Part shown: piece after piece, positions 20,668 to 57,534 of the stretch | How positions within the stretch are numbered: the first letter of the stretch is position 1 | Layout: each line of letters opens with the position of its first letter | Source: an uncultured bacterium | GTDB lineage: Bacteria > Fidelibacterota > Marinisomatia > Marinisomatales > JABMOV01 | Direction: 5' to 3' | Length of the DNA: 64,000 nucleotides | Assembly (NCBI GenBank): GCA_964654545.1 | Contig: CAZZIU010000002.1 | Span: 48,903-112,902 of the forward strand | The notes under the pieces: model-generated | Seen by the model: the letters and a program-made list of their open reading frames with translations, nothing else | What the model was told of the DNA's origin: nothing | Database searches by the model: none | Position numbers and translations under genes: made by a program

Positions 20668-21923
20668 TTACCATTTTGAAAAGATCTTTTTTGGTGGGAA
20701 TGCTGGTTGTATGCCAGCAGATGGGTTATGCTCAGCAAAGAAAAGATCTTCAGGTAATCAATAAGTTTGACATTCAGGTTGTTCCGTCGGCGGTATCATC
20801 AAATGATTCAATACGCATCATCACCCTCCTTGAGATTCCATATTCCAGTTTACAATTCATAAAAGACACCAGTGGTTTTAAGGCAGAATACGAAGCAACC
20901 ATTGTTATACAGGATGAAAATCATTATCAGTATGATCGAGTCATTTGGCAGGAATCGATTACGGTTGCTAACTATATTGAGACAATTGCTATTAAAAACT
21001 ATGTATCCCATGGGAAAGAAATTGTGGTTCCGCTTACAGATTTAAATATTGTTGCAGAGATTACTGATCTGGAGACCCACAATAATGGAATACGTACGAT
21101 TCCTTTTTCATTGGATTTTGATTCAACAACTCCATTTTTACTTGATCCAGTAATTCTTACTGGTAAACCAGGGGATTGGGGTTTTGGTCCGAATCTGTTT
21201 CCACTTTTTAATTCCTCTTACTCGGCTTTACCAGAATCATTATTTGTATTTATCACTGGATATATTAAGCCAGAAGCCTATGATCTGCGATTTTCACTTG
21301 AGTATGGGGATCAGGAAGTATGGGATTCAAATTTGCATTTAGAAAACGACAAAACATGGTTTAGTAAGACGGTATATATTCCTTCCGATTCCATTACTGG
21401 TATTCGCATGCAATTAAATACGGAAATACAACAAAGTGGTAGCAGTGATAAGAAAGCCATTGATGTAAAATTAAAACATCAAGGTGTATCGAGATTTGTT
21501 ACTGATATTGATGTTGCACTGGACCAAATGAGATATATTTTAAATAATGATGAAAAACAGCAGCTTAAACGCACGAATAGTCGAGAAAAAGAAAATTTGT
21601 TTTATCATTTCTGGCGAGATAGAGATCCGACACCAGCAACGATATTTAACGAATTAATGGAAGAATATTACCGGAGAGTGAATTTTTCAAATGAACATTT
21701 TTCTACCCTACAACCTGGTTGGCGAACCGACATGGGAATGATATATATCTATATGGGACCTCCTGATGATGTGGAAAGATTAACCATGCCTAACAGTAGA
21801 AATTCGTACGAGATATGGTACTATCATCGAATCAATGAGAGGTTCACTTTTATTGATCCAAATGGGTTTGGGGATTATCGGTTAAATGAACCATTTTTAG
21901 GCACACCAAATAGTGGCTGGTAA
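20664..21923 (+). CDS. GWxTD domain-containing protein
   Basis: The C-terminal region carries FWRDRDPTP...YYRRVNFSNEHF...PGWRTDMGMIYIYMGPPD...EIWYY. Signal peptide MITILKRSFLVGMLVVCQQMGYAQQ. ATGA overlap with the upstream gene; the ORF-track start at 20610 was trimmed. Confidence 0.75.
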   Translation: MITILKRSFLVGMLVVCQQMGYAQQRKDLQVINKFDIQVVPSAVSSNDSIRIITLLEIPYSSLQFIKDTSGFKAEYEATIVIQDENHYQYDRVIWQESITVANYIETIAIKNYVSHGKEIVVPLTDLNIVAEITDLETHNNGIRTIPFSLDFDSTTPFLLDPVILTGKPGDWGFGPNLFPLFNSSYSALPESLFVFITGYIKPEAYDLRFSLEYGDQEVWDSNLHLENDKTWFSKTVYIPSDSITGIRMQLNTEIQQSGSSDKKAIDVKLKHQGVSRFVTDIDVALDQMRYILNNDEKQQLKRTNSREKENLFYHFWRDRDPTPATIFNELMEEYYRRVNFSNEHFSTLQPGWRTDMGMIYIYMGPPDDVERLTMPNSRNSYEIWYYHRINERFTFIDPNGFGDYRLNEPFLGTPNSGW

Positions 21924-22719
21924 TTTGCTGGAATATTTTTCTTATAGTCGGCTGTCAACTTTCAAGCACTGTCCGGCACAATTCAAAATTCAATACATCG
22001 ATAACATAGAGCAAAGATACGAATCGATAGAAGCATTTACTGGTAAACGAATTCATGAAGTGATGGAGCATTTGTATACCAAAAGAATGGTAAAAAACCA
22101 GGTTCCATCACTGGATGAATTATTTGAATACCTATCCACTAATTGGAAATTAAAATGGCATTCAGGGGTTGCTATTATTAATCAAAGGAACACTTCCGGG
22201 ACCTATTATGCACTGGCTGAAAAATGTCTGGCCTGGTATTATCGAAATTATTATCCATTCAATGAATCGGTGGTTGGGATTGAATATCCATTTGAGATTA
22301 CATTTTCAGATAAATACAAGTTTATTGGATATATTGACCGGTTGGATCGATTGTCCGACAATTCTCTTGTAATTATTGATTACAAAACTGGCAGAAGGGT
22401 CATGAATGCGAATCAGGCTGAAAATGATTTGCAAATGACAATTTATCATCTGGCAATCCAGGAGAATTTCCCAGAGGCTAGTGAGATACGATTATCCTGG
22501 CAATACCTGCAAAAAGGTATGGTAGTTGTGACACAAAGAAATCCAAAAAAACTAGCTGGGCAAAAAGCAAAAATCCTCAAACAGGCAGCGGTTATTGAAA
22601 AATCGATGGTCGATGGCACATTCCCCGCCAAAGAAAGTATGCTATGTAATTGGTGCTTCTATTGGAATGAATGTCCTGCCAAAATTTCTAACAATCCATA
22701 TATAAAAGTTGATGCATGA
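21913..22719 (+). CDS. PD-(D/E)XK nuclease, Cas4/AddB-like with four-Cys Fe-S ligand set
   Basis: N-terminal FKHCP, GYIDRLD, IIDYKTGR (D-x-K), QMTIYHLA (QxxxY), and C-terminal CNWCFYWNEC. The start is GTG 21913 or TTG 21925. Confidence 0.8.
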   Translation: MAGNLLEYFSYSRLSTFKHCPAQFKIQYIDNIEQRYESIEAFTGKRIHEVMEHLYTKRMVKNQVPSLDELFEYLSTNWKLKWHSGVAIINQRNTSGTYYALAEKCLAWYYRNYYPFNESVVGIEYPFEITFSDKYKFIGYIDRLDRLSDNSLVIIDYKTGRRVMNANQAENDLQMTIYHLAIQENFPEASEIRLSWQYLQKGMVVVTQRNPKKLAGQKAKILKQAAVIEKSMVDGTFPAKESMLCNWCFYWNECPAKISNNPYIKVDA

Positions 22720-39937: not shown

Positions 39938-40095
39938 ACATTTCGTGGGAACAATCACACATAACAATCATTTCTTGATTGATCGACGAGCTAGGGATAT
40001 ATTCGCCGACTGAAAATGAGGAGTAGTTAATCGAATAATTGTTATCATTTGGGAAACCAATTCCCAATCGAATTACTAACATTGGAGAAATTTCT

Positions 40096-41430
40096 ATGAA
40101 GCGAATTATAAATTTATTCGCACTACTGCTCATTACGTCAGGTTCTACATTGTATCCGCAGAGTGAAGCTGGAGCAATCTTTCTACTCATAGCGCCCGGT
40201 GCTCGTGCCGGTGGAATGGGTGAAGCACAGGTGGCTTTAGCAGATGATGCCTACGCCAGCTATTGGAATCCTGCCGGATTAGGTTTTTTGAAAGGAACCG
40301 AATTTGGAATGATGCACGTCAACTGGTTACCAAATCTTGCTGATGATATATATTACGAATTTTTTGCAGGCAGACATTATATACCTATGCTTGGTACCGT
40401 TGGTGGGCATTTAATTTTTTTAAATTTAGGTGAGCAGCTCAGAACAGGAGAATTTGGTGAAGATTTAGGTACATTTACGTCGTACATGATGGCTATAACT
40501 GGGTCCTACAGTACTTTGCTTTCTCACAAGTCATCCATTGGATTAAATGCTAAAGTTTCCTATCAACACCTGGCAGAGCAGGGAGCCGGTGCAGAAAAGG
40601 GAAAAGGAACGTCGATAGATTTTGGGTTTGATATTGGATATTTAAACAAAGAATTTTTGACTGAACGATTAACCCTGGGTCTTACTGTGTCAAATATTGG
40701 TCCGAAAGTTGATTTTATTGATCCTGCACAGGGGGATCCACAACCAACCAATCTCACCCTCGGTTTGAACTACCGCTTAATTGACTCTGAGTTCAATAAA
40801 GTAAATGTAGTGTATGATTTGAACAAGATGCTTGTGGCTGCTTATCCCGATATGGATTGGGATGGTGATTATAAAATTGGCGGATATACGGAAGACGGTG
40901 TGTACAACGGTGCCGGTGATTACAATAAATCCGGTCAAATGGAAGTTGCCCATAAGGATCCCATTTATTATGCAATATTTACATCTTGGATTGATGACTG
41001 GTTACTGGGCGGAGATATTGATAAAAGCAGTGCTACCAGTGAAGCGGACAGAGAAATCGGTGGGTGGACTTGGGTTTCCGGAGAAGGCGGCGATGATGTA
41101 TTGGTAAAAACGGATAGCATAAGCCCTGGTGATCCAGGTTGGGGAAAATACAATAGTGATGGTGAATTAGAGGTAGGATCAGGCAAAAAGCGCACAATCA
41201 TGAATGAAATTGATAAACTGGTGCATAATCTTGGTTTTGAATATTGGTATTCCAGTTATTTTGCGATTCGTGGTGGAATTATTTACGATAAAATTGGAAA
41301 AATTTCTAATCCAACTTTTGGTGTAGGGTTACGTTTTGCCGAGTACGGTTTTGATTTTGGGTATATTTCAGGAAAACCTGGTCACCCTTTAACAAATACC
41401 ATGCGATTTTCTCTAAACTGGGTATTTTAA
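40096..41430 (+). CDS. PorV/PorQ-family-like outer-membrane beta-barrel (T9SS-associated family)
   Basis: Signal peptide, then GARAGGMGEAQVALADDAYASYWNPAGLGF, the N-terminal signature I associate with PorV/PorQ barrels. It ends ...RFSLNWVF. An acidic Gly/Asp-rich insert of about 115 aa lies roughly at 40843-41190. Confidence 0.6.
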   Translation: MKRIINLFALLLITSGSTLYPQSEAGAIFLLIAPGARAGGMGEAQVALADDAYASYWNPAGLGFLKGTEFGMMHVNWLPNLADDIYYEFFAGRHYIPMLGTVGGHLIFLNLGEQLRTGEFGEDLGTFTSYMMAITGSYSTLLSHKSSIGLNAKVSYQHLAEQGAGAEKGKGTSIDFGFDIGYLNKEFLTERLTLGLTVSNIGPKVDFIDPAQGDPQPTNLTLGLNYRLIDSEFNKVNVVYDLNKMLVAAYPDMDWDGDYKIGGYTEDGVYNGAGDYNKSGQMEVAHKDPIYYAIFTSWIDDWLLGGDIDKSSATSEADREIGGWTWVSGEGGDDVLVKTDSISPGDPGWGKYNSDGELEVGSGKKRTIMNEIDKLVHNLGFEYWYSSYFAIRGGIIYDKIGKISNPTFGVGLRFAEYGFDFGYISGKPGHPLTNTMRFSLNWVF

Positions 41431-41450
41431 ACTTTTAATTCTAATCCTCG

Positions 41451-44279
41451 ATGCTATTTAGCAGACTACCGGGTAGATTGTTTACTACCTATGTATTTAC
41501 TTATCTATCGATTGGGTATTCACAGATAATTGGTCAAAAAACCATCGCCGCCATACGTGTATCATTTATAGAAGATGTGATACAGAGTACAACTGGCAAT
41601 GGGTTGTTTCTTCTAGACGGTGACAATCAATTTTGTGGTGATTATACGATTGATCCTGTACCACATGATCGCGATTATTTTCGTTCTCAGCTTGTCGCTG
41701 TGGATTCCTATTTTAATCAGGTTTCATATCAACAACTATCTTTCGATCTTGATAATTCTGTAGTATTCCCCAAGGGTAACACAGATAGTTACCAACTTCC
41801 ACACACAATGGATTATTACCATCCCTATGGTGAGGATAACATTTCCGATCAACGACTGGCAGAATTATTCAGGGATGCTGTTGAAGCGTCGTATGATGAA
41901 GACCAGATTGATTTTTCAGCTTTTGATATTGTTGTTGTATTCCATGCTGGGGTGGGACAGGATTTTGCGTTACCATTTTTGGATCCAACTCCAGAGGATA
42001 TACCCTCGACTTTTATTGACAACGTGATGATTCAGGAAAATCTAGGCGCATCTGGTATACAGGTTGGTGGTGTTGAAATAACCGAAGGCATCCTCTTGCC
42101 GGAGACACAAAATCATCTTCTTTTTGAAGATTTAAGAGATGCGTTTGGGACTGAATTCAGTGCCTGCGAATATCAATTTGGACTTACCGGTACCTTCTCA
42201 TTAATGATGGGATTTTTACTGGGATTACCACCTTTATGGGATATCGAAACGGGACAAAGCGGTATAGGCGTTTTTGGTTTGATGGATCAAGGATCCAACA
42301 ATGGCAGGGGACTGATTCCTGCTCCTCCCAATTCTTGGACGCGCATTTTTGCTGGGTGGGAGACGGCCCTGCCGTCTAATATAGATGGAAGTTATACAGA
42401 TGTAATAATACGAAGTAAAGGCAGTACCAGAGTTGCTCAGGTTGATGAGGATGAATACTTTTTGATTGAAAACCGAAACAATACACTACGTGAAAGTGTA
42501 TCAATCGATTCGTTACGATATTTGTACTATTTACAAAACGATAATTATCCTCCCTATGTCCAAATTTTGTTTGATTCCACAAACGTTGACCGAGATACAA
42601 ACGGCGTTGTAACGCACATTCCAAATTATGATATAGGATTGCCAAACTCCGGTTTGCTTATCTGGCATATAGATGCATCCAGAATTCAACAGGGAATTGG
42701 AGATTACTCAATAAATAGTAACCCAAATGCAAGAGGTGTGGATCTAGAAGAAGCGGATGGTGCAAAAGATATTGGATTTCCATCAATTTTTCCTTTTAAC
42801 GACCCCTCTGCCGGATATTTTGCAGACATGTGGTACAAAGGGAATCAGGAGTATTACCGTTTTAATCCATATTTAAAGCGCGAAAAACTGGTATTTGGGC
42901 CCTTTACCATGCCTAACACCAGAAACAATGAGAATGTGGCAACCCATATCTCCATTGATTCAATTGGCGTTGTAAGTGATACCATGTATTTTATTGTGCG
43001 GAATGAATTTTTACAGACCGGATTTCCCATTGCTAATCTCCGTATGCACTTAGGATGGGATATTGATGGAGATGGTACAACCGAGTATATTGTTGGAAAA
43101 GATTCATTGTCTATAACAACAGATCTATTCGAAGGAGGATTATTTTTTCATGCAATTCGTGCAGATTCATTTCAAGTATTATTAACGAATTTTGAAACCG
43201 ACAATGATATTGCAATTGTTGAAATTTTTGAAGATTCGATTATGGTTTCCGTATTTAACTCGTCAGAAAATCAAGTAGAACTAGAATGGCAACAAACAGG
43301 GTTTGTGGGTAGTGATTTTAATATCTCAGGATTTCCCGACACTAACTTGGTAACGATTAAAACAAACACACAACGCTGTGTGTTTGGGCCAGACAGTGTT
43401 GCTTGTGTCGGAATTTCGGATACAAATGAAATGGCTTCTCTTAGAAGTGAGATCACCGTGGGAGGAACAACCACCGTAACCAATGTAACAGCAGCAGGAA
43501 TTGGTCGTGTAACCATAGATGAATTTGAGATTAACAATCTTGGGAGAATTCAGCAAGTTGCTATGGTGGATTTGGATATATCACAGGATGCTGAATTATT
43601 GGTGCTATCTGAAACAGGTGTTCTACATGCGCTTCATGAAAACACCACTTTTGTCAGTGGTTTTCCTTTTTCTGAAAATAATATTGAACGATTTTTGGTC
43701 CAGAATCTTTTTGCTGACGGCCACCCAGAAATTGTGCTACAAAACACGGATAAGGATTTATTTATATACAATTGGAAAGGCAAACTTCAATACCGCTTGG
43801 GAAATCCCACAGATGGTAAGTTGGTACAACTTGGTGCTTATCGCAATAAGAATGCAATCTTTACATCCGATGCTATTTGGACTTTTGATGATACCACATC
43901 CAGCTCAAACGCCTGGCCGTTGATCCATGCAGACCCGGCACAAACAAACATATTCAAACTGAATTACCAAAGTCCATTTGAAAATACATCGAGTATTCTG
44001 GATAACCGCAAAACATATGCGTATCCAAACCCTGCAGAAAATGGTTATGTAAAGATTCGGTGTACGGTGAATGATGCCGATAAAATAACATGTGAGATTT
44101 TTGATTTTGCAGGATATTTTGTAAGACGATTTACCAATAATCAGCCTGTGAATCTAAATCCCAATGAATTTTACTGGGATGTGAGTGGGGTGGAGCCAGG
44201 CGTGTATTTTGCAACAGTAAGGGCTACCAATGGGGTGACCTCTAAAAGCAAAATATTAAAAATCGGCGTACTCCAGTAA
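41451..44279 (+). CDS. T9SS-sorted M6 (immune-inhibitor-A)-like protein with a degenerate active site, FG-GAP-like repeats and a C-terminal sorting domain
   Basis: VVVFHAGVGQD and GTFSLMMGFLLGLPPLWD...GLMDQGSNNG...WTRIFAGW align to M6 G..AHEFGHDLGLPDLYD, with HExxH replaced by LMxxF. DIDGDGTTEYIVG is present. The C-terminal YAYPNPAENGYVKIRC...GVYFATVRATNG...KILKIGVLQ is a Por_Secre_tail-type CTD. Confidence 0.7.
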   Translation: MLFSRLPGRLFTTYVFTYLSIGYSQIIGQKTIAAIRVSFIEDVIQSTTGNGLFLLDGDNQFCGDYTIDPVPHDRDYFRSQLVAVDSYFNQVSYQQLSFDLDNSVVFPKGNTDSYQLPHTMDYYHPYGEDNISDQRLAELFRDAVEASYDEDQIDFSAFDIVVVFHAGVGQDFALPFLDPTPEDIPSTFIDNVMIQENLGASGIQVGGVEITEGILLPETQNHLLFEDLRDAFGTEFSACEYQFGLTGTFSLMMGFLLGLPPLWDIETGQSGIGVFGLMDQGSNNGRGLIPAPPNSWTRIFAGWETALPSNIDGSYTDVIIRSKGSTRVAQVDEDEYFLIENRNNTLRESVSIDSLRYLYYLQNDNYPPYVQILFDSTNVDRDTNGVVTHIPNYDIGLPNSGLLIWHIDASRIQQGIGDYSINSNPNARGVDLEEADGAKDIGFPSIFPFNDPSAGYFADMWYKGNQEYYRFNPYLKREKLVFGPFTMPNTRNNENVATHISIDSIGVVSDTMYFIVRNEFLQTGFPIANLRMHLGWDIDGDGTTEYIVGKDSLSITTDLFEGGLFFHAIRADSFQVLLTNFETDNDIAIVEIFEDSIMVSVFNSSENQVELEWQQTGFVGSDFNISGFPDTNLVTIKTNTQRCVFGPDSVACVGISDTNEMASLRSEITVGGTTTVTNVTAAGIGRVTIDEFEINNLGRIQQVAMVDLDISQDAELLVLSETGVLHALHENTTFVSGFPFSENNIERFLVQNLFADGHPEIVLQNTDKDLFIYNWKGKLQYRLGNPTDGKLVQLGAYRNKNAIFTSDAIWTFDDTTSSSNAWPLIHADPAQTNIFKLNYQSPFENTSSILDNRKTYAYPNPAENGYVKIRCTVNDADKITCEIFDFAGYFVRRFTNNQPVNLNPNEFYWDVSGVEPGVYFATVRATNGVTSKSKILKIGVLQ

Positions 44280-44294
44280 CTTGAAGAAACCACA

Positions 44295-47243
44295 ATGAAA
44301 TTTTCGCTGTTTTTCGTTGTTTCTGCATTTACGTTAGGATTTGGCCAAATCCAATACAACCATAATGAATTACACTGGCATACTTTTGAAACGGATCATT
44401 TTTACATCCATTATCATGATGAAACCGAATGGACAGCACGTGAAGGAGCTATTGTAGCAGAAACGATTTATCCTAAGATAACATCATTGTATGATCTTGA
44501 ACCTGCAACCAAAACTCACCTGGTTTTCATTGATACTGACGATTTTTCGAATGGTGCTGCATATTATTATGACAATAAAATTTTTATTTGGGCATCACCA
44601 CTGGATTATGCCCTGAGAGGAAGTCATCGCTGGCTGCAAAATGTAATTACCCACGAGTTCACCCATATTGTGTCTATTCAAAAGGCAATGAAGGCTGGTG
44701 TTAAAATTCCAGGTGCTTACTTACAGATCATGGGGTATGAACAGTACAAACGCAAAGATGTGCTATATGGATTTCCAAACAAGCTCATTAGTTACCCTTT
44801 GCCAGGAGCAATTGTACCCCCCTGGCTGGCAGAGGGCGTTTCGCAATATATGTACGATGGTGCGGACTGGGATATTTGGGATAGCCATCGTGATATGATA
44901 CTTCGCGACCGTGTATTGCATGACAATTTATTGTCATTTGATGCCATGAATACATTTGGTAAAAGCGGAATTGGGAACGAATCTGTGTACAATTCGGGAT
45001 ATGCCCTGAGCAGGTATATTGCCGTAAAGTATGGTTCGGATAGTTTTAGAAAAATTATGGAAGCCATGTCGAATCCATTTCAATTTTCTATCAACTCGGC
45101 TCTTAAGAAATCTATTGGAATTTCCGGTGACGAATTATACCGTGATTTTAAGACGACTCTTGAAGCCCGTTATGAGATACTCACCACCTCTGCAAAAGAA
45201 AACAATGTAAAAGGCAAAATTATTGTCGGTGAGGGAACAACCAATATTTTTCCTGTCTGGCACCCTGATGGAAAATCATTTGCCTATTTATCCAATAAAA
45301 GGAATGATTATTTCGGTCAAACCGAACTATATGTATTTAACGTAGCAGACAGTTCGGAAAAATTAATCGCAAGCGGTGTTTCAAGTGCTCCCTGCTGGCA
45401 TCCCGATGGGAAACATTTATATTATAGTCGACGACCTGAGCGCCCCAACAAGCATGGATCGCGCTTCTTCGATATATTTGAGTACAACATGGTGACGGAG
45501 GAAGAAACAAGATTAACAAAGGATACACGTGGCTTTGCCCCGGTGTACATTTCTAAGGATTCTACCATAGCATTTCTCGGAACTTGGGATGGGGGACAGA
45601 ACATTCATTTATTGGACTTGTCAGATTATCAGCTGTACCAATTGACTGATTTTGAGGATCATCGTATGATCCATTCTCTAGCATACGATGAAGGAAACAA
45701 CCGCTTGTTATTCGACTACACCAATCACCATTTTAGGAACATTGGTTACTATTCATTTGAGGATACAACTCTGGGTGATTTTGTTGCAGAACCCATGTGG
45801 GATGAACGAGATATCACCATTTCCAATGGGAAGGTTTTCTATTCTGACGATAGAACAGGTATCTATAATTTATATACAATTGCAGAAGATCAGCAGTCGC
45901 AGGGATTTATCACAAACGTACTTGGTGGGGCATTTATGCCAAGTATTTCCAATGAAGGAAAAATATTATATTCGCATTACCAGAACGGTAGCTATAATAT
46001 TGCATTATTAGATTCAATTAAAGTAATAGATGAGATAAAAGTAGGGTATTCGCCCAGCTATTATTTACGTAATGAATCGTTATCGTTACCCATTACAGAA
46101 CTCGACACAACTCCGGCAATTTCCTACACGGATCAATTTGCTAACATGTTTATCATGCCAAAACTCATGTTTGATTATGGAACGATAAAACCAGGATTTT
46201 ATTTTTACTCAAGTGAAATTATCAACCGACTAAATATTTTTGGCGGTGCATCTGTCAATGAGATTAAGGACCTTGATTTATTTTTCTTGTTTGAGTTTAA
46301 TCAATTTTATCCAACCTTATTTTTGGAAATGTTTTATATTACCAGAAATCTAAAAGAAGCAAATACGTATAGTGATGCATATCCGCTTGATGATAGAATA
46401 CGGTATAGACTTACCTATTTCAGGGGTGGATTACGATTTCCGATTTTAGGTCGGCATAGTCTGGAAGTATCATCGACTTGGCAGGTCTATCGTGCATTCA
46501 TCGATGAATCGATTCCTGAGGAAGGTATTCTGCAGGGATTTGCATACGATTATTACAAGGGATGGGTGAGCAGTCTGCACTGGAATACAGAAGCAATTAA
46601 ACGGCGCTACGATTCGGATATTCTTCCTTCAAAGGGATTTTTCCTGGATGCGACTCTAAGTTTGGAAAAAAATAATTTTATTGAGGGTCTGAATCTGTCC
46701 GATGCAGGAACAATCGTTCCAGAATTCCGTAAGCACAATGACTTAATTCGTTTCGAGGGAGAAGGAAGTTATCATTGGGAAATTCCAAAAACAAATCGCT
46801 GGACTCTTTCTTTTAAATCAATTGCCGGATGGATGAATAATACAGAAGCAGATTCATTTTTCAATTTTTTCGGCGGTGGAATGATAGGTCTTCGTGGATA
46901 CCCCTTTTATAGTATTGAAGGTAATCGAATGGCAATTGGATCGTTAGCATTCCGCATACCACTAGTTCGCCAGGAGCATATTAAGCTGGGATGGTTTACG
47001 CTACAAAATTCCGCAATTGGTTTGATCGTCCAGGGAGGCGATGCCTGGAGCGATTCATTTGCAATGAAAACTTCTTTAGGATTTCAATGGCGGTTTAATG
47101 GGTATTCCTTTTATAATTTCCCGACTGGAATTGGACTAGAGATTCATCAAGGTCAGTCCAAAATAACAAATAGTGTCAATGATGAGGTTTTTACATATGG
47201 AAAAGACAACCAGTACTATATCACCATATTATTTGGTTTTTAA
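44295..47243 (+). CDS. Fusion protein: zincin (Peptidase_MA-like) domain + TolB-like PD40 beta-propeller + C-terminal Omp85-family beta-barrel
   Basis: Signal peptide. HEFTH at 44652-44666 with the downstream WLAEGVSQY. PD40 repeats PVWHPDGKSFAYLS and PCWHPDGKHLYYS. Omp85 motifs FFGGGMIGLRGYP (LRGY at 46890-46901) and IVQGGDAW, with a terminal ...ITILFGF. Confidence 0.75.
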   Translation: MKFSLFFVVSAFTLGFGQIQYNHNELHWHTFETDHFYIHYHDETEWTAREGAIVAETIYPKITSLYDLEPATKTHLVFIDTDDFSNGAAYYYDNKIFIWASPLDYALRGSHRWLQNVITHEFTHIVSIQKAMKAGVKIPGAYLQIMGYEQYKRKDVLYGFPNKLISYPLPGAIVPPWLAEGVSQYMYDGADWDIWDSHRDMILRDRVLHDNLLSFDAMNTFGKSGIGNESVYNSGYALSRYIAVKYGSDSFRKIMEAMSNPFQFSINSALKKSIGISGDELYRDFKTTLEARYEILTTSAKENNVKGKIIVGEGTTNIFPVWHPDGKSFAYLSNKRNDYFGQTELYVFNVADSSEKLIASGVSSAPCWHPDGKHLYYSRRPERPNKHGSRFFDIFEYNMVTEEETRLTKDTRGFAPVYISKDSTIAFLGTWDGGQNIHLLDLSDYQLYQLTDFEDHRMIHSLAYDEGNNRLLFDYTNHHFRNIGYYSFEDTTLGDFVAEPMWDERDITISNGKVFYSDDRTGIYNLYTIAEDQQSQGFITNVLGGAFMPSISNEGKILYSHYQNGSYNIALLDSIKVIDEIKVGYSPSYYLRNESLSLPITELDTTPAISYTDQFANMFIMPKLMFDYGTIKPGFYFYSSEIINRLNIFGGASVNEIKDLDLFFLFEFNQFYPTLFLEMFYITRNLKEANTYSDAYPLDDRIRYRLTYFRGGLRFPILGRHSLEVSSTWQVYRAFIDESIPEEGILQGFAYDYYKGWVSSLHWNTEAIKRRYDSDILPSKGFFLDATLSLEKNNFIEGLNLSDAGTIVPEFRKHNDLIRFEGEGSYHWEIPKTNRWTLSFKSIAGWMNNTEADSFFNFFGGGMIGLRGYPFYSIEGNRMAIGSLAFRIPLVRQEHIKLGWFTLQNSAIGLIVQGGDAWSDSFAMKTSLGFQWRFNGYSFYNFPTGIGLEIHQGQSKITNSVNDEVFTYGKDNQYYITILFGF

Positions 47244-48174
47244 ATTATTATTTATTTCAATTGTTAGTTTACAAGTGACATTATTTGCCGGTTCTCCGCT
47301 GGATACATATAATCCGCGATTTGTACATCAACAGCAAAAATTTGATTTTACTCAAAATATGAGTATTGTGTCTGATTTATCAATGGATAGAGTGGACTCA
47401 ATCAAAATCTATCCAGGGCGTCCATTAATTATGTCTTTATTACTTCCAGGGGCGGGTCAGTTTTATAACCATGATTCGTGGCTTAAAATTGGCGCATTTG
47501 CCGGGGTAGAATTAACAAGTGTAATGGCGTATTTTAACTTTATTGATAAAGCAAATCAGCTCCAGAGCGAATACGAATCTTTTGCAGACTTGCATTGGTC
47601 AATTGAAGATTGGGTAATAAACACAAGTGAGGTAATGAATCGTTATCCTGACCTTTACTCTGATGTAAGAATTGACGGTACCCATTCGTTACTGCTGCAC
47701 CTTCCGGAAAACATGATTGAAGAGCACGGAGAATTTGTTTCCTCTGATATTCTTGATAGTCTACCTGAGTGGGGTTACAATACAGATTTGGGTGTAACTG
47801 TAGTGCGTGATAGAGACTTTTATGAGAATATAGGCAAGTATGATCAGTTTGTCGGAGGATGGGATGATTTTGACCCGAATAATATTTTGGCCAAAGAAAA
47901 AGATGTGGGTGATTCTACCGAGGTAATAATTGTTACATCTAGGAAAAACAAATATTTGAATACGAGATATGATAGTAATCAGAAATTAAAGATGGCCAAT
48001 TACGCTATAACAGCTCTGCTTTTTAATCACGTCTGGAGTGCAATTGACGCAGTATTGGTTGCCAATAAAAATAAGCAAAAGGAAAGCAATGGTGTTAAAA
48101 CTGATGTTGGGTTGCTATACGACGGCAGAACAAAATACGGAATTGGCGGTGTTTCCGTTTCGGTTAAATTTTAG
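47233..48174 (+). CDS. DUF5683-like membrane/periplasmic protein
   Basis: SLLLPGAGQFYN followed by a TM helix, the motif I associate with DUF5683. The start is ambiguous: TTG 47233 gives the signal-like MVFKLLFISIVSLQVTLFA, and ATG 47197 or 47173 are also possible. Confidence 0.5.
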   Translation: MVFKLLFISIVSLQVTLFAGSPLDTYNPRFVHQQQKFDFTQNMSIVSDLSMDRVDSIKIYPGRPLIMSLLLPGAGQFYNHDSWLKIGAFAGVELTSVMAYFNFIDKANQLQSEYESFADLHWSIEDWVINTSEVMNRYPDLYSDVRIDGTHSLLLHLPENMIEEHGEFVSSDILDSLPEWGYNTDLGVTVVRDRDFYENIGKYDQFVGGWDDFDPNNILAKEKDVGDSTEVIIVTSRKNKYLNTRYDSNQKLKMANYAITALLFNHVWSAIDAVLVANKNKQKESNGVKTDVGLLYDGRTKYGIGGVSVSVKF

Positions 48175-48183
48175 AGGGATGAT

Positions 48184-48951
48184 TTGAAAAAAATAAGATA
48201 TATAGTTGCTGGTTTAATTCTACTGGGTTTGATAGGGTGTTCGGGAAATAAATCAAAAGAAGACACCGATATTCAGGCCCGCTTTGAAAAAGGTATGAAA
48301 TATTTTGACAAGGAAAAATATCTTCGCGCCCAGGAGGAATTTAATTACGTATCCCTGAGTGGTTCTCATACAGATTATGGTGATGATGCTTCCTTTTATT
48401 TGGCTGAATCCTATTTTTACAATAAAGAATATATTCTTGCTAGAGCCGAATATGATCGGCTTATACGACGGATGAGTTTTACGCCATATCTGGAACAGGC
48501 GCGATGGCGAATTTGTGAATGTTATGTCAAGGAATCACCTAAATACTATCATGACCAAACCAGTACGGATAAGGCGCTGGCCAAGTTGCAGGAATTCATT
48601 GATGATTTCCCACAATCAGATTATGGTGAAGAAGCGGAAAATACATTGGTGGAGTTAAGGTATAAACTGGGTAAAAAAGCATACGAGACTGGAATTTTAT
48701 ATATCAAATTAGGTGCTTACGATTCTGCAATACTGGCCTTTGAACAAGTTCTTGAAAAATATTATGATACACCTTTTGTAGAGATGGCTCATACTGAAAT
48801 AATACACAGCTATTGTCTGGCATTGGATATTGACAAGGCCGAAGTCTATTACGATGAGGTAAAAGCCACGATTCAGGATGACGCGTTGCAATCTGATATT
48901 GCAGGATACATGGAAAAAGCCAGAAAAAAAATTGCCAAGCAAGAGAATTAA
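48184..48951 (+). CDS. bamD: Outer membrane protein assembly factor BamD
   Basis: Lipobox LLGLIGC and TPR-like helices: FEKGMKYFDKEKYLRAQEEF, ASFYLAESYFYNKEYILARAEYDRLI, ALAKLQEFIDDFPQSDY. Confidence 0.8.
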   Translation: MKKIRYIVAGLILLGLIGCSGNKSKEDTDIQARFEKGMKYFDKEKYLRAQEEFNYVSLSGSHTDYGDDASFYLAESYFYNKEYILARAEYDRLIRRMSFTPYLEQARWRICECYVKESPKYYHDQTSTDKALAKLQEFIDDFPQSDYGEEAENTLVELRYKLGKKAYETGILYIKLGAYDSAILAFEQVLEKYYDTPFVEMAHTEIIHSYCLALDIDKAEVYYDEVKATIQDDALQSDIAGYMEKARKKIAKQEN

Positions 48952-55150: not shown

Positions 55151-55912
55151 ATGGACGAAAAAAAGAGGCATCGTATTTCCGATTTACTGGAATTTTTAAT
55201 TGTACTGTCACTGGTATTCCTTTTTATCGTGTTAACGGTTCCCATAGCCATCTGGGAAGAAGAAGCACAGGCCGAAAAAGAAGCAAGATTCCGCATGAAG
55301 ACCATGAACGGAGTTCAGCAGTTTTATAAGACTTTAACCGGGCAATACGAAAACGATGATTTTTGGGCAATAAAAGTTGTGAATGCAGTGCGAGATTCTG
55401 TTGTTGCAGATTCTATGTTTGTCGGTGAACAATTGGTCCTACTCGATGATAAAGAATTCGTTGTGGAAATTCCTGATAAATTTAATGTTGACGTGGACAC
55501 CACGTTTGGATTCCAGCGGACAAGAAGAGATACGATGAATGACACGACGGTTACCTATCTTTCTTATGTTATGAAAAATACCGGTGAAATTGATTATGAC
55601 TTGATTGATACTTCATATACCCCTATCAAAAAGTTGAGCGAAATTGAACAAGATTCTCTCTTTATACGGATTTTAAAGCAGGAACCGGTACAACGGGTTG
55701 AATTAACAACCTATTACGATACATACGCACCGGACTCAAGTTTTATGTATTGCCCTGTGACGATACAACAATTTATAACTTCGATCGAAGAGGACCAATT
55801 TAGAATTGATTGTCCCATTGCTGATGTAGTCAAAGAACCACGTTATCTCATATTTTCATTTTCAGCCTCAAATCATGGATACATGAAAGATGGTGTCACA
55901 AGCTGGGATTAA
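55151..55912 (+). CDS. Membrane-anchored hypothetical protein with a pilin-like N-terminal helix
   Basis: RISDLLEFLIVLSLVFLFIVLTVPIAIW followed by an amphipathic helix. I recognise no domain. Confidence 0.5.
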   Translation: MDEKKRHRISDLLEFLIVLSLVFLFIVLTVPIAIWEEEAQAEKEARFRMKTMNGVQQFYKTLTGQYENDDFWAIKVVNAVRDSVVADSMFVGEQLVLLDDKEFVVEIPDKFNVDVDTTFGFQRTRRDTMNDTTVTYLSYVMKNTGEIDYDLIDTSYTPIKKLSEIEQDSLFIRILKQEPVQRVELTTYYDTYAPDSSFMYCPVTIQQFITSIEEDQFRIDCPIADVVKEPRYLIFSFSASNHGYMKDGVTSWD

Positions 55913-55923
55913 ATGATTAGCTT

Positions 55924-57534
55924 GTGATTACATTTGTTTTATCAAACGATTATATTTACGGATGTAAGTGGTATAAAGATGAGTCAACTTTTCAAGTAAG
56001 AAGTTCATTTTACCACCCTTTTAATTCCCCTCTACTTAACCAAATATCCGACGAGACACAATTAAATCATTTGATTGATGGCTCGCTCCGACTTTGCTCA
56101 CAAACAATGGATATTTCTGGTGAACCTATCAGTGTTATTCTTGATTCAACATTAACGTTTGAAGATATCCTGCAAACCGATTCCGACTTACCCGTTCATA
56201 TCCCTCGCCAATACATTGATTGGTACAAAGAAACGATTCTGTGTGATTACAGTGATGATTTTGAATATAGTATTTCTGAAAAACATCGAAATATCAATGA
56301 ATTTCGTGTCACATATTTCCCACGGCTTCTACCTGATATTATAAAAATGTCAGTGCGGGAATTAGGCGGTAAGCCTTTTGAGCTAAAATCAATTGGATCG
56401 ATGTTTATCAATCGCAGTGCCAGTGGGAATTCAATGATCGTAAGGGATGATGTTCATGGATACACAATATATGGTGATACGGATAACGGTTCGTTTATTT
56501 CTAATCTTAGATTTTTAAAGGGAGAACCTAAATTTTCAGAGTGGACTGGGAATACGGACATTCGCAGCTTGCTGTTCACCGAACAATATGATGGTGCGGA
56601 TATTGAGGTGCACTTTATAGGTTCATTTACGGACAATAAAAAAGCCCATTGGGCCAGCTGGGACTATTTTATTGAAGATGTATCTACGAATAAGTCTGAT
56701 TGGGAAAACCTGCAAACCGATTTGAATGAAGAGCAATTATCCATTTTAACTGAATGTATTTCGGAATATTCTGATCCCGATTCTAATCTATTTGACCATG
56801 CAATTCGAGTTTCAGCAAAAGATGAGGTTGATGGGGATCGTGATGACAAAATCTATCATGAAAATATACCGGAAATTAAGGGGCGCAAAACACCGTCACC
56901 GTTTTTGACATTTCTCTTTATTGTAGTTGGTTTAAGCTATATCTATATTAATCGCGCACCTTTAATTGAGTTGGGCTCCCAGTTAATTCAACCGGATAGT
57001 GAGACTGTTGCACCCCTAACTGTAGATCCGCGTATTCACACAATTGCGAATACCAGTGAATCTCAATTGAACTTTATCAATCTTCAAATTGGGTATGATT
57101 TATCTACGTTACGCTTTATGGTTACTGAAGAAAATGCTGCTGAAATCCATTGGGAAAAAAAACCTGAAGATATTAAAAACAGGTTTAGTTATTTGGGGTC
57201 AAATATTACAATGGATGGTCTTAAAGTTCAGCTATCCTTACCATTAATTAAGGGTCAAAAATTATTTCAAAACAACAAACCGGTTGAATCCTGGTTACAG
57301 TACACTTATCGATATTTCCCCACAGGTGAGATTCATGTATTTAAACCAATTTCTTTTGCTGATACGTATTACCACCCCATCACGATTCAGTTGAATGATA
57401 TATCCACAATAATCAATTTTATCAAGTGGCTAAGAAATGGACCAACCAACTCATTGCTGAGGAAATCGATTGTAATGACAGATTCCAATCATGATTTAAC
57501 CGCAACTTTTTATATTTCACTCTTTAATATATAA
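55924..57534 (+). CDS. Hypothetical bitopic protein (cytoplasmic N-domain, one TM near residue 335, periplasmic C-domain)
   Basis: GTG start and a central TM FLTFLFIVVGLSYIYI. I recognise no motif. The topology resembles PilM-PilN/O-type assembly proteins, but only by architecture. Confidence 0.5.
   Translation: MITFVLSNDYIYGCKWYKDESTFQVRSSFYHPFNSPLLNQISDETQLNHLIDGSLRLCSQTMDISGEPISVILDSTLTFEDILQTDSDLPVHIPRQYIDWYKETILCDYSDDFEYSISEKHRNINEFRVTYFPRLLPDIIKMSVRELGGKPFELKSIGSMFINRSASGNSMIVRDDVHGYTIYGDTDNGSFISNLRFLKGEPKFSEWTGNTDIRSLLFTEQYDGADIEVHFIGSFTDNKKAHWASWDYFIEDVSTNKSDWENLQTDLNEEQLSILTECISEYSDPDSNLFDHAIRVSAKDEVDGDRDDKIYHENIPEIKGRKTPSPFLTFLFIVVGLSYIYINRAPLIELGSQLIQPDSETVAPLTVDPRIHTIANTSESQLNFINLQIGYDLSTLRFMVTEENAAEIHWEKKPEDIKNRFSYLGSNITMDGLKVQLSLPLIKGQKLFQNNKPVESWLQYTYRYFPTGEIHVFKPISFADTYYHPITIQLNDISTIINFIKWLRNGPTNSLLRKSIVMTDSNHDLTATFYISLFNI

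What the first reader, a model, noticed from the sequence alone, without database searches (positions are those of the whole stretch)
40096..48951. Contiguous outer-membrane gene cluster: PorV-like barrel, pseudo-M6 T9SS cargo, protease-propeller-Omp85 fusion, DUF5683-like protein, BamD
Five consecutive + strand genes, all predicted envelope proteins, follow the largest intergenic gap in the window (158 nt, 39938-40095). They are separated from each other by no more than 20 nt or by overlaps. The PorV/PorQ-like barrel carries an unusual acidic Gly/Asp-rich insert of about 115 aa. PorV-family proteins are known to shuttle T9SS cargo, and the next gene is a CTD-bearing cargo. BamD, the essential partner of Omp85/BamA, closes the block next to an atypical Omp85 protein. 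Taken together, this may be a functional surface-assembly or processing unit rather than coincidence. This is my best candidate for an undescribed system in the window, but the link is inferred from adjacency only.
Basis: inference. Interest (0 to 1): 0.55.

Follow-up and report, generated by a model that had tools for sequence, protein, structure and literature searches.

The report
Conserved secretion-linked outer-membrane gene module
Four of the five flagged genes (a PorV barrel, a dead M6 protease with a type IX secretion tag, a zinc-peptidase/propeller/Omp85-barrel fusion and a DUF5683-like protein) form a gene module kept together in at least five bacterial phyla and apparently undescribed, while the fifth gene, BamD, is only a neighbour.

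Summary
The five genes exist and their domain calls are essentially right. The window comes from a Marinimicrobia (Fidelibacterota) genome.

Comparison of 86 loci holding a relative of the fusion protein splits the block in two. The order porV, inactive-M6 cargo, peptidase-propeller-Omp85 fusion, DUF5683-like is kept in Marinimicrobia, KSB1, Calditrichota, Ignavibacteriales and Gemmatimonadota, although the flanking genes differ. In Gemmatimonadota it directly follows porU, the type IX secretion (T9SS) sortase. In another lineage sprA, the translocon gene, lies 4 kb away.

BamD follows the module in 45 of 45 Marinimicrobia-type loci, together with nadD. It follows in 0 of 21 loci elsewhere, so its adjacency is phylum-level synteny.

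The fusion belongs to the 'WD40-like Omp85' class named in 2014. It has an intact HExxH...E zinc site, a TolB-like propeller, and a modelled 16-strand barrel with the Omp85 L6 RGY motif. It has no POTRA domain, which is where BamD binds BamA.

My best reading is a T9SS-associated outer-membrane module, an extension of the porU/porV attachment locus outside Bacteroidota. How it works is inferred, not shown. The individual parts are known families, but I found no paper on the module. Interest is moderate to high.

The parts
40096..41430 (+). g1, a PorV-family outer-membrane barrel (444 aa) with a signal peptide. A GGAG Shine-Dalgarno sequence lies about 8 nt upstream of the ATG.
   Evidence: NF033709 scores 239.6 bits (cutoff 90). 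The PorV equivalog NF033710 scores 181 bits (cutoff 250), far above PorQ at 49 bits. The best match among solved structures is F. johnsoniae PorV, 6h3i_F, E=1.9e-23. Orthologues lie in the same position in 56 of 59 loci with enough upstream sequence.
40861..41220 (+). Acidic Gly/Asp-rich loop insert of g1 (about residues 256-375), containing DxDxDG-like motifs.
   Evidence: Composition and charge are. In alignment A4 the KSB1, Calditrichota and other orthologues have about 25 residues here, while Marinimicrobia have a much longer insert (about 100 to over 300 residues). F. johnsoniae PorV has a shorter Asp/Gly-rich stretch at the same place.
41451..44279 (+). g2, a T9SS cargo-type protein (942 aa). 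It has a signal peptide, a catalytically dead M6-like domain (aa 27-517), a beta-propeller/FG-GAP-like region, and a type A C-terminal sorting domain (CTD).
   Evidence: NF052323 ('T9SS-dependent M6-like inactivated metalloprotease') scores 384 bits, below its cutoff of 600. The KSB1 and 'Cytophagia' MAG orthologues score 621 and 618 bits.
42204..42218 (+). Degenerate active-site position of g2. The sequence is MMGFL followed by LGLPP, where active M6 enzymes have HExxH before LGLPD.
   Evidence: None of 14 orthologues from five lineages has an HExxH motif. The sequence was read directly. The canonical M6 motif is from my own knowledge of the family.
44022..44261 (+). Type A C-terminal sorting domain (CTD) of g2, aa 858-937.
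   Evidence: PF18962 scores 37.9 bits (cutoff 27) and TIGR04183 scores 32.9 bits (cutoff 23). The CTDs of orthologues also weakly match the C-terminal ends of the PorU and PorZ models.
44295..47243 (+). g3, a 'WD40-like Omp85' fusion (982 aa). It has a signal peptide, a gluzincin-type peptidase (to about aa 302), a TolB-like propeller (308-572), a 45-aa linker and a 16-strand barrel (619-982).
   Evidence: The AlphaFold2 model has mean pLDDT 83.8 and pTM 0.83. The best fold matches to solved structures are TolB. The family has 399 clusters at 50% identity with E<1e-30. Heinz & Lithgow 2014 named the class.
44652..44666 (+). HEFTH zinc-binding motif of g3 (H120, E121, H124). The probable third ligand is E180, within PPWLAEG at 44832-44834.
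   Evidence: H120, E121, H124 and E180 are invariant in 36 full-length representatives that share 24-57% identity with g3.
46875..46901 (+). Omp85 L6-loop motif GGMIGLRGY of g3 (aa 861-869), between modelled barrel strands 11 and 12.
   Evidence: G861, G865, G868 and Y869 are invariant. hhalign aligns FFGGGMIGLRGY with FYAGGSSTVRGF of E. coli BamA.
47173..48174 (+). g4, a DUF5683-like exported protein. Possible starts are GTG 47173, ATG 47182, ATG 47197 and TTG 47233, and all of them overlap the end of g3. The invariant motif FYENIGKYDQFVGGWDD lies at 47818-47868. The protein ends in a beta hairpin with a terminal aromatic residue.
   Evidence: PF18935 scores 29.6 bits (cutoff 26.7). The alignment is A3. 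The AlphaFold2 model has pLDDT 73 and has no fold match among solved structures. A homologue follows the g3 homologue in 71 of 74 loci. The Gemmatimonadota homologue matches at hhalign probability 99.5%.
48184..48951 (+). g5, the lipoprotein BamD. It is a real BamD, but it is a neighbour and not a conserved member of the module.
   Evidence: TIGR03302 scores 128 bits (cutoff 81). The lipobox is LIGC. BamD is adjacent in 45 of 45 Marinimicrobia-type loci and 0 of 21 others.

Best explanation
[quoted passage not shown] It is an extension of the porU/porV 'attachment complex' locus that occurs in FCB phyla outside Bacteroidota. BamD (g5) is the ordinary housekeeping BamD and lies next to the module only in Marinimicrobia.

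Shown here:
- The four genes stay together across at least five phyla while their flanks change.
- The module abuts porU in Gemmatimonadota, and sprA lies 4 kb away in another lineage.
- g2 carries a T9SS type A sorting domain, and its protease site is dead in every orthologue examined.
- g3 keeps an intact HExxH...E zinc site, a TolB-like propeller, and an Omp85-type 16-strand barrel without POTRA.

Inferred mechanism:
- PorV (g1) receives the sorting domain of the dead M6 protein (g2) from the translocon and holds it on the cell surface without cleavage. PorV and PorQ hold PorU and PorZ this way in Porphyromonas. This would give a surface pseudo-protease/propeller that binds substrates rather than cutting them.
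- The Omp85-type barrel of g3 sits beside the FadL-like PorV barrel, as BamA sits beside FadL-like BamG in the Flavobacterium BAM complex.
- The propeller-gated zinc peptidase of g3 faces the periplasm, as Omp85 N-terminal domains do. There it trims or clears T9SS cargo, stalled intermediates or sorting-domain remnants.
- g4 is exported and docks on g3, possibly through its C-terminal aromatic-ended beta hairpin, which resembles an OMP beta-signal.
For: Gene order.
- tblastn of the window's proteins against 86 loci holding a g3 relative gives, outside Marinimicrobia-type loci, g1 in 12 of 15, g2 in 15 of 18, g4 in 18 of 21 and BamD in 0 of 21. In Marinimicrobia-type loci all are present, together with nadD (45 of 45).
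- The flanks differ between lineages. They are SHMT and TRAP transporter genes upstream with bamD, nadD and ftsEX downstream in Marinimicrobia. They are accBC and gcvHP upstream with rmlD downstream in KSB1 and Calditrichota. They are porU upstream in Gemmatimonadota, and lptFG with sprA downstream in L085.

Link to T9SS.
- The gene upstream of porV in L083 is PorU (NF033707, 558 bits, cutoff 420), and L088 has the same arrangement.
- The KSB1 PorV orthologue passes the canonical PorV cutoff (256.4 bits, cutoff 250), and its M6-like neighbour passes the NF052323 cutoff (621 bits, cutoff 600).
- g1's best match among solved structures is F. johnsoniae PorV.
- g2 has a type A CTD, and none of 14 orthologues has HExxH.

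g3.
- H120, E121, H124 and E180 are invariant.
- The AlphaFold2 model (pLDDT 83.8) shows 16 long strands with the RGY loop between strands 11 and 12.
- The family profile hits the Omp85 proteins 9ccg (E=0.0016), TamA (0.012) and BamA (0.13).
- PF01103 is on record for distant homologues.
- hhalign aligns the L6 motif to that of BamA.

g4.
- Its family follows g3 even at 26-28% g3 identity.
- All members examined have a signal peptide and an aromatic C-terminus.

Published background.
- PorQ, PorU, PorV and PorZ form the attachment complexes (PMC12365241, abstract).
- PorV is the carrier of type A substrates (PMC10994853).
- BamG is a FadL-family barrel bound to BamA (PMC12611786).
Against: - No physical interaction, expression or phenotype data exist for any of these proteins. 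Every mechanistic step rests on gene order and analogy.
- The side of the membrane on which the g3 peptidase sits was not determined. It is assumed from Omp85 topology.
- A periplasmic peptidase fits poorly with sorting-domain cleavage, which occurs at the cell surface in Porphyromonas.
- Some g3 relatives have none of the partner genes. They are L079, L082, a second Gemmatimonadaceae protein in L084, and a Bdellovibrionota protein in L089. The fusion protein can therefore work without PorV.
- In the window protein itself, g1 and g2 score below NCBI's equivalog cutoffs (181 bits against 250, and 384 against 600).
- KSB1 and Calditrichota share upstream flanks, so they are not fully independent samples.
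- I could not check whether this genome has another porV, a porU, or a canonical bamA elsewhere.
Confidence: 0.6

Rival explanations
1. The module is a specialised outer-membrane-protein assembly and quality-control machine, a BAM/TAM-like device. In g3 a BamA-like barrel, a BamB/TolB-like propeller and a BepA-like zinc protease would be fused in one chain. It would insert or proof-read large T9SS barrels such as SprA or PorV. In Marinimicrobia it might cooperate with the adjacent BamD.
For: - g3 has an Omp85 barrel with the L6 motif.
- Heinz & Lithgow described the class as reminiscent of a BamA-BamB fusion.
- sprA and lptFG lie next to the module in L085.
- BamD is adjacent throughout Marinimicrobia.
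- g4 ends in a beta-signal-like hairpin.
- Bacteroidota BAM includes a FadL-like barrel, BamG, so pairing an Omp85 barrel with a PorV-like barrel has a precedent (PMC12611786).
Against: - g3 has no POTRA domain, which in known Omp85 insertases receives substrates and binds BamD.
- BamD adjacency is 0 of 21 outside Marinimicrobia.
- The strictly conserved partner with a T9SS sorting domain (g2), and porU upstream in Gemmatimonadota, point to cargo handling rather than barrel insertion.
- g1 is PorV-type, not BamG-type. Its only match among solved structures is PorV.
Confidence: 0.2
2. g3 is a type Vd-like self-exporter. Its Omp85 barrel would translocate its own peptidase-propeller to the cell surface. 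There it would act as the protease partner of the dead M6 protein, degrading extracellular protein for nutrition, with PorV only delivering g2.
For: - Omp85 proteins with non-POTRA N-terminal enzymes exist. Heinz & Lithgow list patatin-like PlpD and 'Metallo' classes and raise surface export as one possibility.
- Marinimicrobia are protein degraders (my own knowledge).
- An active and an inactive metalloprotease are encoded side by side.
Against: - The abstract of PMC11116518 calls PlpD the prototype of this Omp85 family.
- g3 lacks even the single POTRA domain that PlpD has.
- A folded six- or seven-bladed propeller is a poor passenger for a 16-strand barrel.
Confidence: 0.1
3. There is no shared function. 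The five genes are neighbours only through inherited synteny in a genome where almost everything is co-oriented and tightly packed.
For: - Every gene in the window is on the + strand.
- Synteny in Marinimicrobia extends over more than 17 kb of unrelated housekeeping genes: SHMT, TRAP transporter genes, nadD, ftsEX, hrcA, grpE and dnaJ.
- This explanation does account for BamD.
Against: g1 to g4 stay together in KSB1, Calditrichota, Ignavibacteriales, Gemmatimonadota and unnamed lineages while the flanks are replaced.
Confidence: 0.05

Closest known systems
T9SS attachment complex PorU-PorV-PorZ-PorQ of Porphyromonas gingivalis, and the porU-porV gene pair of Bacteroidota
   Same: - There is a PorV-family barrel encoded next to large proteins that carry a T9SS sorting domain.
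- In Gemmatimonadota the module directly follows a bona fide porU.
- The sorting domain of the M6-like protein weakly resembles those of PorU and PorZ. From my own knowledge, those two domains are retained rather than cleaved.
   Different: - The partner here is a dead M6 metalloprotease with an FG-GAP-type propeller. It is neither the C25 sortase nor PorZ.
- An Omp85-family peptidase fusion and one or two DUF5683-like proteins are added. As far as I could find, neither has a described role in T9SS.
'WD40-like Omp85' subfamily (Heinz & Lithgow 2014, PMC4104836)
   Same: - The architecture is the same: a TolB-like propeller fused to a BamA-like barrel, with an aminopeptidase-like N-terminal region.
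- Their list includes a Caldithrix abyssi protein, H1XQ58. C. abyssi carries a g3 homologue in locus L071.
   Different: - In the passages and supplementary tables I read, that paper classifies the architecture only. It gives no gene context and no link to PorV or T9SS, and its functional idea is a BamA-BamB-like platform.
- I did not verify that H1XQ58 is the L071 protein.
NCBIfam NF052323, 'T9SS-dependent M6-like inactivated metalloprotease'
   Same: - g2 matches the N-terminal half of the model (E=1.5e-114), lacks HExxH and has the type A sorting domain.
- Orthologues in the same module position in KSB1 pass the curated cutoff.
   Different: - The window protein scores 384 bits against a cutoff of 600, so by NCBI's rule it is a relative and not an equivalog.
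- The model says nothing that I could read about neighbouring genes.
Bacteroidota BAM complex BamA-BamD-BamG-BamH (Liu et al. 2025, PMC12611786)
   Same: It pairs an Omp85 barrel with a FadL-family 14-strand barrel and with large surface-exposed partners. That paper reports BamG and BamH as conserved across most FCB phyla.
   Different: - g1 is PorV-type, not BamG.
- g3 lacks POTRA domains and carries a peptidase.
- BamD is not conserved with the module.
- The resemblance is architectural only.
TamA-TamB and the BepA-BAM partnership
   Same: - In both TamA-TamB and this module an Omp85 protein is encoded next to a partner with C-terminal beta strands (g3-g4).
- In both BepA-BAM and this module a periplasmic HExxH zinc protease is associated with an Omp85 machine.
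   Different: - g4 is about 300 aa and unrelated to TamB.
- The g3 peptidase is M1/MA-like, not M48, and is covalently fused to the barrel.
- These comparisons come from my own knowledge and were not tested here.

Membership tests
PorV/PorQ family (NF033709) and canonical PorV (NF033710) | The HMM score is above the curated cutoff. | tested here: met
   The family model scores 239.6 bits (cutoff 90). The PorV equivalog model is NOT met by the window protein (181 bits, cutoff 250). The 120-aa insert splits the match into two stretches. The model is met by the KSB1 orthologue in the same module position (256.4 bits). PorQ scores only 49 bits.
PorV/PorQ family (NF033709) and canonical PorV (NF033710) | The gene is adjacent to porU, as in Bacteroidota. 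| tested here: inconclusive
   This is not the case in the window or in other Marinimicrobia loci, where TRAP transporter genes lie upstream. It is the case for the orthologous module in Gemmatimonadota, loci L083 and L088. The porU gene of this genome was not located.
PorV/PorQ family (NF033709) and canonical PorV (NF033710) | The protein is a 14-strand FadL-type barrel that binds cargo sorting domains. | not tested
Binding cannot be tested with these tools.
T9SS type A cargo | A C-terminal sorting domain is present at the extreme C-terminus, and the protein has a signal peptide. | tested here: met
   TIGR04183 scores 32.9 bits (cutoff 23) and PF18962 scores 37.9 bits (cutoff 27), at aa 858-937 of 942. 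The N-terminus is hydrophobic.
NF052323, T9SS-dependent M6-like inactivated metalloprotease | The score reaches the equivalog cutoff of 600 bits. | tested here: not met
   g2 scores 384 bits, on the N-terminal half only. Orthologues in L059 and L058 score 621 and 618 bits. g2 is therefore a diverged relative of this family.
NF052323, T9SS-dependent M6-like inactivated metalloprotease | The HExxH catalytic motif is lost. | tested here: met
   g2 and 13 orthologues have no HExxH. g2 reads MMGFL-LGLPP at the motif position.
Omp85 superfamily | The protein has a 16-stranded C-terminal beta barrel. | tested here: met
   The AlphaFold2 model has 16 long strands between residues 619 and 980, with pLDDT mostly 80-95. 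I counted strands from the secondary-structure string, not from coordinates.
Omp85 superfamily | A conserved (V/I)RG(F/Y) motif lies in loop L6. | tested here: met
   LRGY lies at residues 866-869, between modelled strands 11 and 12. G861, G865, G868 and Y869 are invariant. hhalign aligns the motif to VRGF of E. coli BamA (E=0.0019, probability only 14%).
Omp85 superfamily | The sequence matches the PF01103 model or solved Omp85 proteins. | tested here: inconclusive
   The window protein has no PF01103 hit even at E up to 10. The family profile hits 9ccg (0.0016), TamA (0.012) and BamA (0.13). PF01103 is on record for many distant homologues.
Omp85 superfamily | [quoted passage not shown] | tested here: not met
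   Only a 45-residue linker with one short helix separates the propeller from the barrel. No POTRA Pfam hit was found. Heinz & Lithgow accept non-POTRA classes within the superfamily.
WD40-like Omp85 subfamily (Heinz & Lithgow 2014) | A TolB-like propeller lies N-terminal to a BamA-like barrel, with an aminopeptidase-like N-terminal region. | tested here: met
   TolB is the top fold match among solved structures and the top profile match (E=1e-22). The barrel evidence is given above. Peptidase_MA_2 is matched and a WLAEG-type third ligand is present.
Gluzincin (clan MA) metallopeptidase, active | An HExxH motif and a downstream Glu ligand are conserved. | tested here: met
   H120, E121, H124 and E180 are invariant in 36 representatives sharing 24-57% identity with g3. 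The Peptidase_MA_2 score of 29 bits is below the gathering score of 32.4. Catalysis itself cannot be tested with these tools.
BamD (TIGR03302) | The HMM score is above the cutoff, and the protein is a lipoprotein with TPR repeats. | tested here: met
   TIGR03302 scores 128.2 bits (cutoff 81.4) and YfiO scores 66 bits. The lipobox is LIGC.
Membership of BamD in the conserved module | BamD co-occurs with g1 to g4 outside one phylum. | tested here: not met
   BamD is adjacent in 0 of 21 loci outside Marinimicrobia-type loci.
DUF5683 (PF18935) | The HMM score is above the gathering score. | tested here: met
   g4 scores 29.6 bits (cutoff 26.7), but only profile positions 5-58 of 151 are matched. 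g4 shares the PGxGQxYN helical hairpin and otherwise forms its own family.

The most novel reading that the evidence does not exclude
The four proteins form a physical outer-membrane complex that is a previously unrecognised part of type IX secretion outside Bacteroidota. In it, an Omp85-family barrel with its own active zinc peptidase works beside PorV and a PorV-anchored pseudo-protease to process or attach cargo. This would be the first functional link between the Omp85 superfamily and T9SS cargo handling. It might also be an older form of the attachment complex than the PorU/PorZ system studied in Porphyromonas.
Probability: 0.3. Interest if true: 0.75.

Novelty: new variant of a known kind. 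Interest (0 to 1): 0.6.

Why it matters
Type IX secretion has been worked out almost entirely in Bacteroidota. How cargo is processed and attached in the other FCB phyla is unknown. These include Marinimicrobia, one of the most abundant deep-ocean lineages and a suspected protein degrader.

A four-gene module that follows porV across at least five phyla gives three concrete, testable candidate components. They are a conserved pseudo-protease, an Omp85-peptidase fusion and a DUF5683-like protein. It also gives a first functional context to two orphan families, WD40-like Omp85 and DUF5683-like proteins. An Omp85 barrel without POTRA that carries an enzyme also bears on what Omp85 barrels can do besides inserting proteins.

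The result also shows that gene adjacency within one phylum, here BamD, can mislead.

Tried and rejected
- BamG instead of PorV. Because Bacteroidota BAM contains a FadL-like barrel (PMC12611786), I tested whether g1 is a BamG next to BamD. Its only match among solved structures is PorV, and PorV-family models score far higher than any other family. Rejected.
- Pfam on the g3 C-terminal part alone, at E up to 10, found nothing.
- The fold search with the whole g3 model was dominated by the propeller and gave no barrel hits in the top 50.
- The g4 model has no fold match among solved structures (best E=0.8).
- Looking up the window's own g3 protein returned no contig.
- A 1946-aa apparent fusion of the M6-like protein with the g3-like protein (P0442) looked like Rosetta-stone evidence. 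Its middle is Arg/Pro/Gly-rich out-of-frame sequence, so it is a frameshift or gene-call artefact. Rejected.
- The 313-aa gene upstream of the Bdellovibrionota g3 homologue is not related to g4 (hhalign probability 0.1%).
- The consensus promoter and terminator scans were at or below the shuffled expectation and did not define operon ends.
- No T9SS core gene, bamA or porU was found among the window ORFs I scanned. Not every ORF in the window was scanned.
- Six literature searches found no paper on this gene cluster or on the function of DUF5683. The library lacks most subscription journals.


Full report
**What is in the sequence**

The region holds five consecutive + strand ORFs.
- g1: 40096-41430.
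- g2: 41451-44279.
- g3: 44295-47243.
- g4: 47173-48174. Alternative starts at 47182, 47197 and TTG 47233 all overlap the end of g3.
- g5: 48184-48951.

The spacings are 20 nt, 15 nt, an overlap, and 9 nt. Three points in the observation do not hold or carry no weight.
- The 158-nt gap upstream is not the largest in the window. Gaps of 438, 394 and 313 nt exist elsewhere, and no RNA gene was found in them.
- Every plausible gene in the window is on the + strand.
- The tight packing continues past g5. nadD overlaps bamD by 1 nt and the Ca/Na antiporter gene overlaps nadD by 4 nt. Spacing therefore does not define the block.

**Domain calls**

- g1 is a PorV/PorQ-family protein (239.6 bits, cutoff 90). 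It is much closer to PorV (181 bits) than to PorQ (49 bits). Its only match among solved structures is F. johnsoniae PorV (E=1.9e-23).
- g2 matches NCBI's 'T9SS-dependent M6-like inactivated metalloprotease' over its N-terminal half (384 bits, below the 600-bit cutoff). It has no HExxH: MMGFL-LGLPP stands where active M6 enzymes carry HExxH-LGLPD. It ends in a type A T9SS sorting domain.
- g3 has an HEFTH motif, a weak Peptidase_MA_2 match and PD40/TolB repeats.
- g4 passes the DUF5683 gathering score on a short stretch.
- g5 is a bona fide BamD lipoprotein.
- The acidic insert in g1 is real: about residues 256-375, 17% Gly, 13% Asp, net charge -13. Alignment with orthologues shows it is one loop that is expanded only in Marinimicrobia and varies widely in length there. 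It is about 25 residues in other phyla.

**The fusion protein g3**

Its relatives identify the organism as Marinimicrobia (Neomarinimicrobiota/Fidelibacterota). The family is large, with 399 clusters at 50% identity and E<1e-30.

In 36 full-length representatives sharing 24-57% identity with g3, H120, E121, H124 and E180 are invariant. E180 lies in a WLAEG context like the third zinc ligand of M1 enzymes. The peptidase is therefore predicted to be active.

An AlphaFold2 model (pLDDT 83.8, pTM 0.83) gives four parts:
- a helical peptidase domain;
- a propeller whose best fold matches are TolB;
- a 45-residue linker;
- 16 long strands, with a loop between strands 11 and 12 that carries the invariant GGxxGLRGY.

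The family profile hits solved Omp85 proteins in this region: 9ccg at 0.0016, TamA at 0.012 and BamA at 0.13. Many distant homologues have PF01103 on record. hhalign places FFGGGMIGLRGY on FYAGGSSTVRGF of E. coli BamA, the L6 motif. There is no POTRA domain.

This architecture was already classified as 'WD40-like Omp85' by Heinz & Lithgow in 2014. Their table lists a Caldithrix abyssi protein with BamA, TolB and aminopeptidase fold assignments. They gave no gene context.

**The decisive comparison**

A scan of species-representative genomes with the g3 family alignment returned 80 loci. Six more came from look-ups of distant homologues. I searched all of them with the window's proteins and with distant family members.

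In Marinimicrobia-type loci the whole neighbourhood is conserved: SHMT, TRAP transporter genes, g1 to g5, nadD, the antiporter gene, ftsEX and hrcA. Conservation inside the phylum therefore says nothing specific about the five genes.

Outside that phylum the flanks are replaced but the core stays. PorV is present in 12 of 15 loci, the M6-like CTD protein in 15 of 18, the DUF5683-like gene in 18 of 21, and BamD in 0 of 21. These loci include KSB1, Calditrichota (including Caldithrix abyssi), Ignavibacteriales, Gemmatimonadota and several unnamed lineages. Most of them carry two tandem DUF5683-like genes where Marinimicrobia has one. The Gemmatimonadota copy is clearly homologous to g4 (hhalign probability 99.5%, E=2e-23).

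**The link to type IX secretion**

- In two Gemmatimonadota loci the module directly follows a gene that passes NCBI's PorU sortase cutoff (558 bits, cutoff 420). The order there is porU, porV, M6-like CTD protein, WD40-Omp85, two DUF5683-like genes, and then a further CTD-bearing metalloprotease.
- In another lineage sprA, the translocon gene, starts 4 kb downstream.
- In KSB1 the module's PorV passes the canonical PorV cutoff and its neighbour passes the M6i cutoff.

The PorV here is therefore best seen as the ordinary T9SS PorV, and the module as an extension of the porU/porV attachment locus. Partner-less relatives of g3 also exist: L079, L082, L084 and a Bdellovibrionota protein. The fusion protein as such is not restricted to this context.

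**How it most likely works (inference)**

In Porphyromonas, PorV and PorQ hold PorU and PorZ at the surface through their sorting domains (PMC12365241). PorV is the carrier of type A substrates (PMC10994853). By analogy, I propose the following.
- PorV holds the dead M6/propeller protein on the cell surface as a binding subunit, not a cutting one.
- The Omp85-type barrel of g3 lies next to the FadL-like PorV barrel, as BamA lies next to BamG in Flavobacterium (PMC12611786).
- The propeller-gated zinc peptidase of g3 faces the periplasm, where it trims or clears cargo or stalled intermediates.
- The g4 family has a signal peptide, a strictly conserved FYENIGKYDQFVGGWDD motif, and a C-terminal hairpin that always ends in an aromatic residue, like an OMP beta-signal. 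It may dock on the g3 barrel.

None of these steps is shown. The membrane side of the peptidase is assumed from Omp85 topology.

**Rival explanations**

- A BAM/TAM-like assembly and quality-control device is the main rival. It is favoured by the Omp85 barrel and the nearby sprA and lptFG. It is weakened by the absence of POTRA, by the lack of conserved BamD, and by the strict presence of a CTD-bearing partner.
- A type Vd-like self-exporter is possible but has a poor precedent.
- Pure synteny explains BamD but not g1 to g4.

**Novelty**

Each part is a known family. The conserved association of the four, and its tie to porU, porV and sprA, did not appear in any paper I could search. That library lacks most subscription journals. 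NCBI curators have a model for the M6-like protein and for related 'PorU2' and 'PorV2' proteins, so parts of this may be known to them.

I rate it a new variant of a known kind of system, with moderate to high interest.

Noticed in passing
window 8960-13762: A 1600-aa ORF combines a PGA_cap (capsule-synthesis/metallophosphatase-like) domain, PKD domains and a C-terminal dockerin type I domain. This is an unusual combination for a Marinimicrobia surface protein. A 438-nt stretch without an ORF of at least 150 aa precedes it.
   Followed up: no
window 19027-21923: A 546-aa protein has a match to the PorZ N-terminal beta-propeller (36.6 bits, cutoff 27) and Reg_prop repeats but no detected sorting domain. 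It overlaps a downstream GWxTD-domain protein. It may be another T9SS-related pair, about 20 kb upstream of the module.
   Followed up: partly
window 1-64000: All ORFs of at least 150 aa that are not obvious shadows lie on the + strand, and GC skew is positive throughout. This is an extreme strand bias over 64 kb.
   Followed up: no
window 47818-47868; loci L059 13036-14725 and L088 11126-12678: The g4 family carries a nearly invariant motif, FYENIGKYDQFVGGWDD. Outside Marinimicrobia it is present as two tandem paralogues. All copies examined end in an aromatic residue after an alternating beta-signal-like pattern.
   Followed up: partly
locus L063 8675-9934: In one KSB1 locus a second PorV-family gene (419 aa) is inserted between the M6-like gene and the g3-like gene.
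   Followed up: no
loci L083 12730-14373 and L088 12682-14316: In Gemmatimonadota the module is followed by a further CTD-bearing protein with an MXAN_6640-type HExxH metalloprotease domain and a FlgD_ig domain. It may be a cargo or a further component.
   Followed up: no
protein P0442 (cluster of P0404): A 1946-aa gene call joins the M6-like protein and the g3-like protein through an Arg/Pro/Gly-rich stretch. It looks like a frameshift or assembly artefact in a high-GC genome, not a real fusion.
   Followed up: yes
window 21913-22719: A 268-aa ORF has weak Cas4/AddB-type PD-(D/E)XK nuclease matches. No CRISPR array or cas genes were noticed nearby.
   Followed up: no
window 55151-57534: Two ORFs, of 253 aa and 536 aa, have no NCBIfam match, and the 536-aa ORF also has no Pfam match. 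A 394-nt gap precedes them.
   Followed up: no
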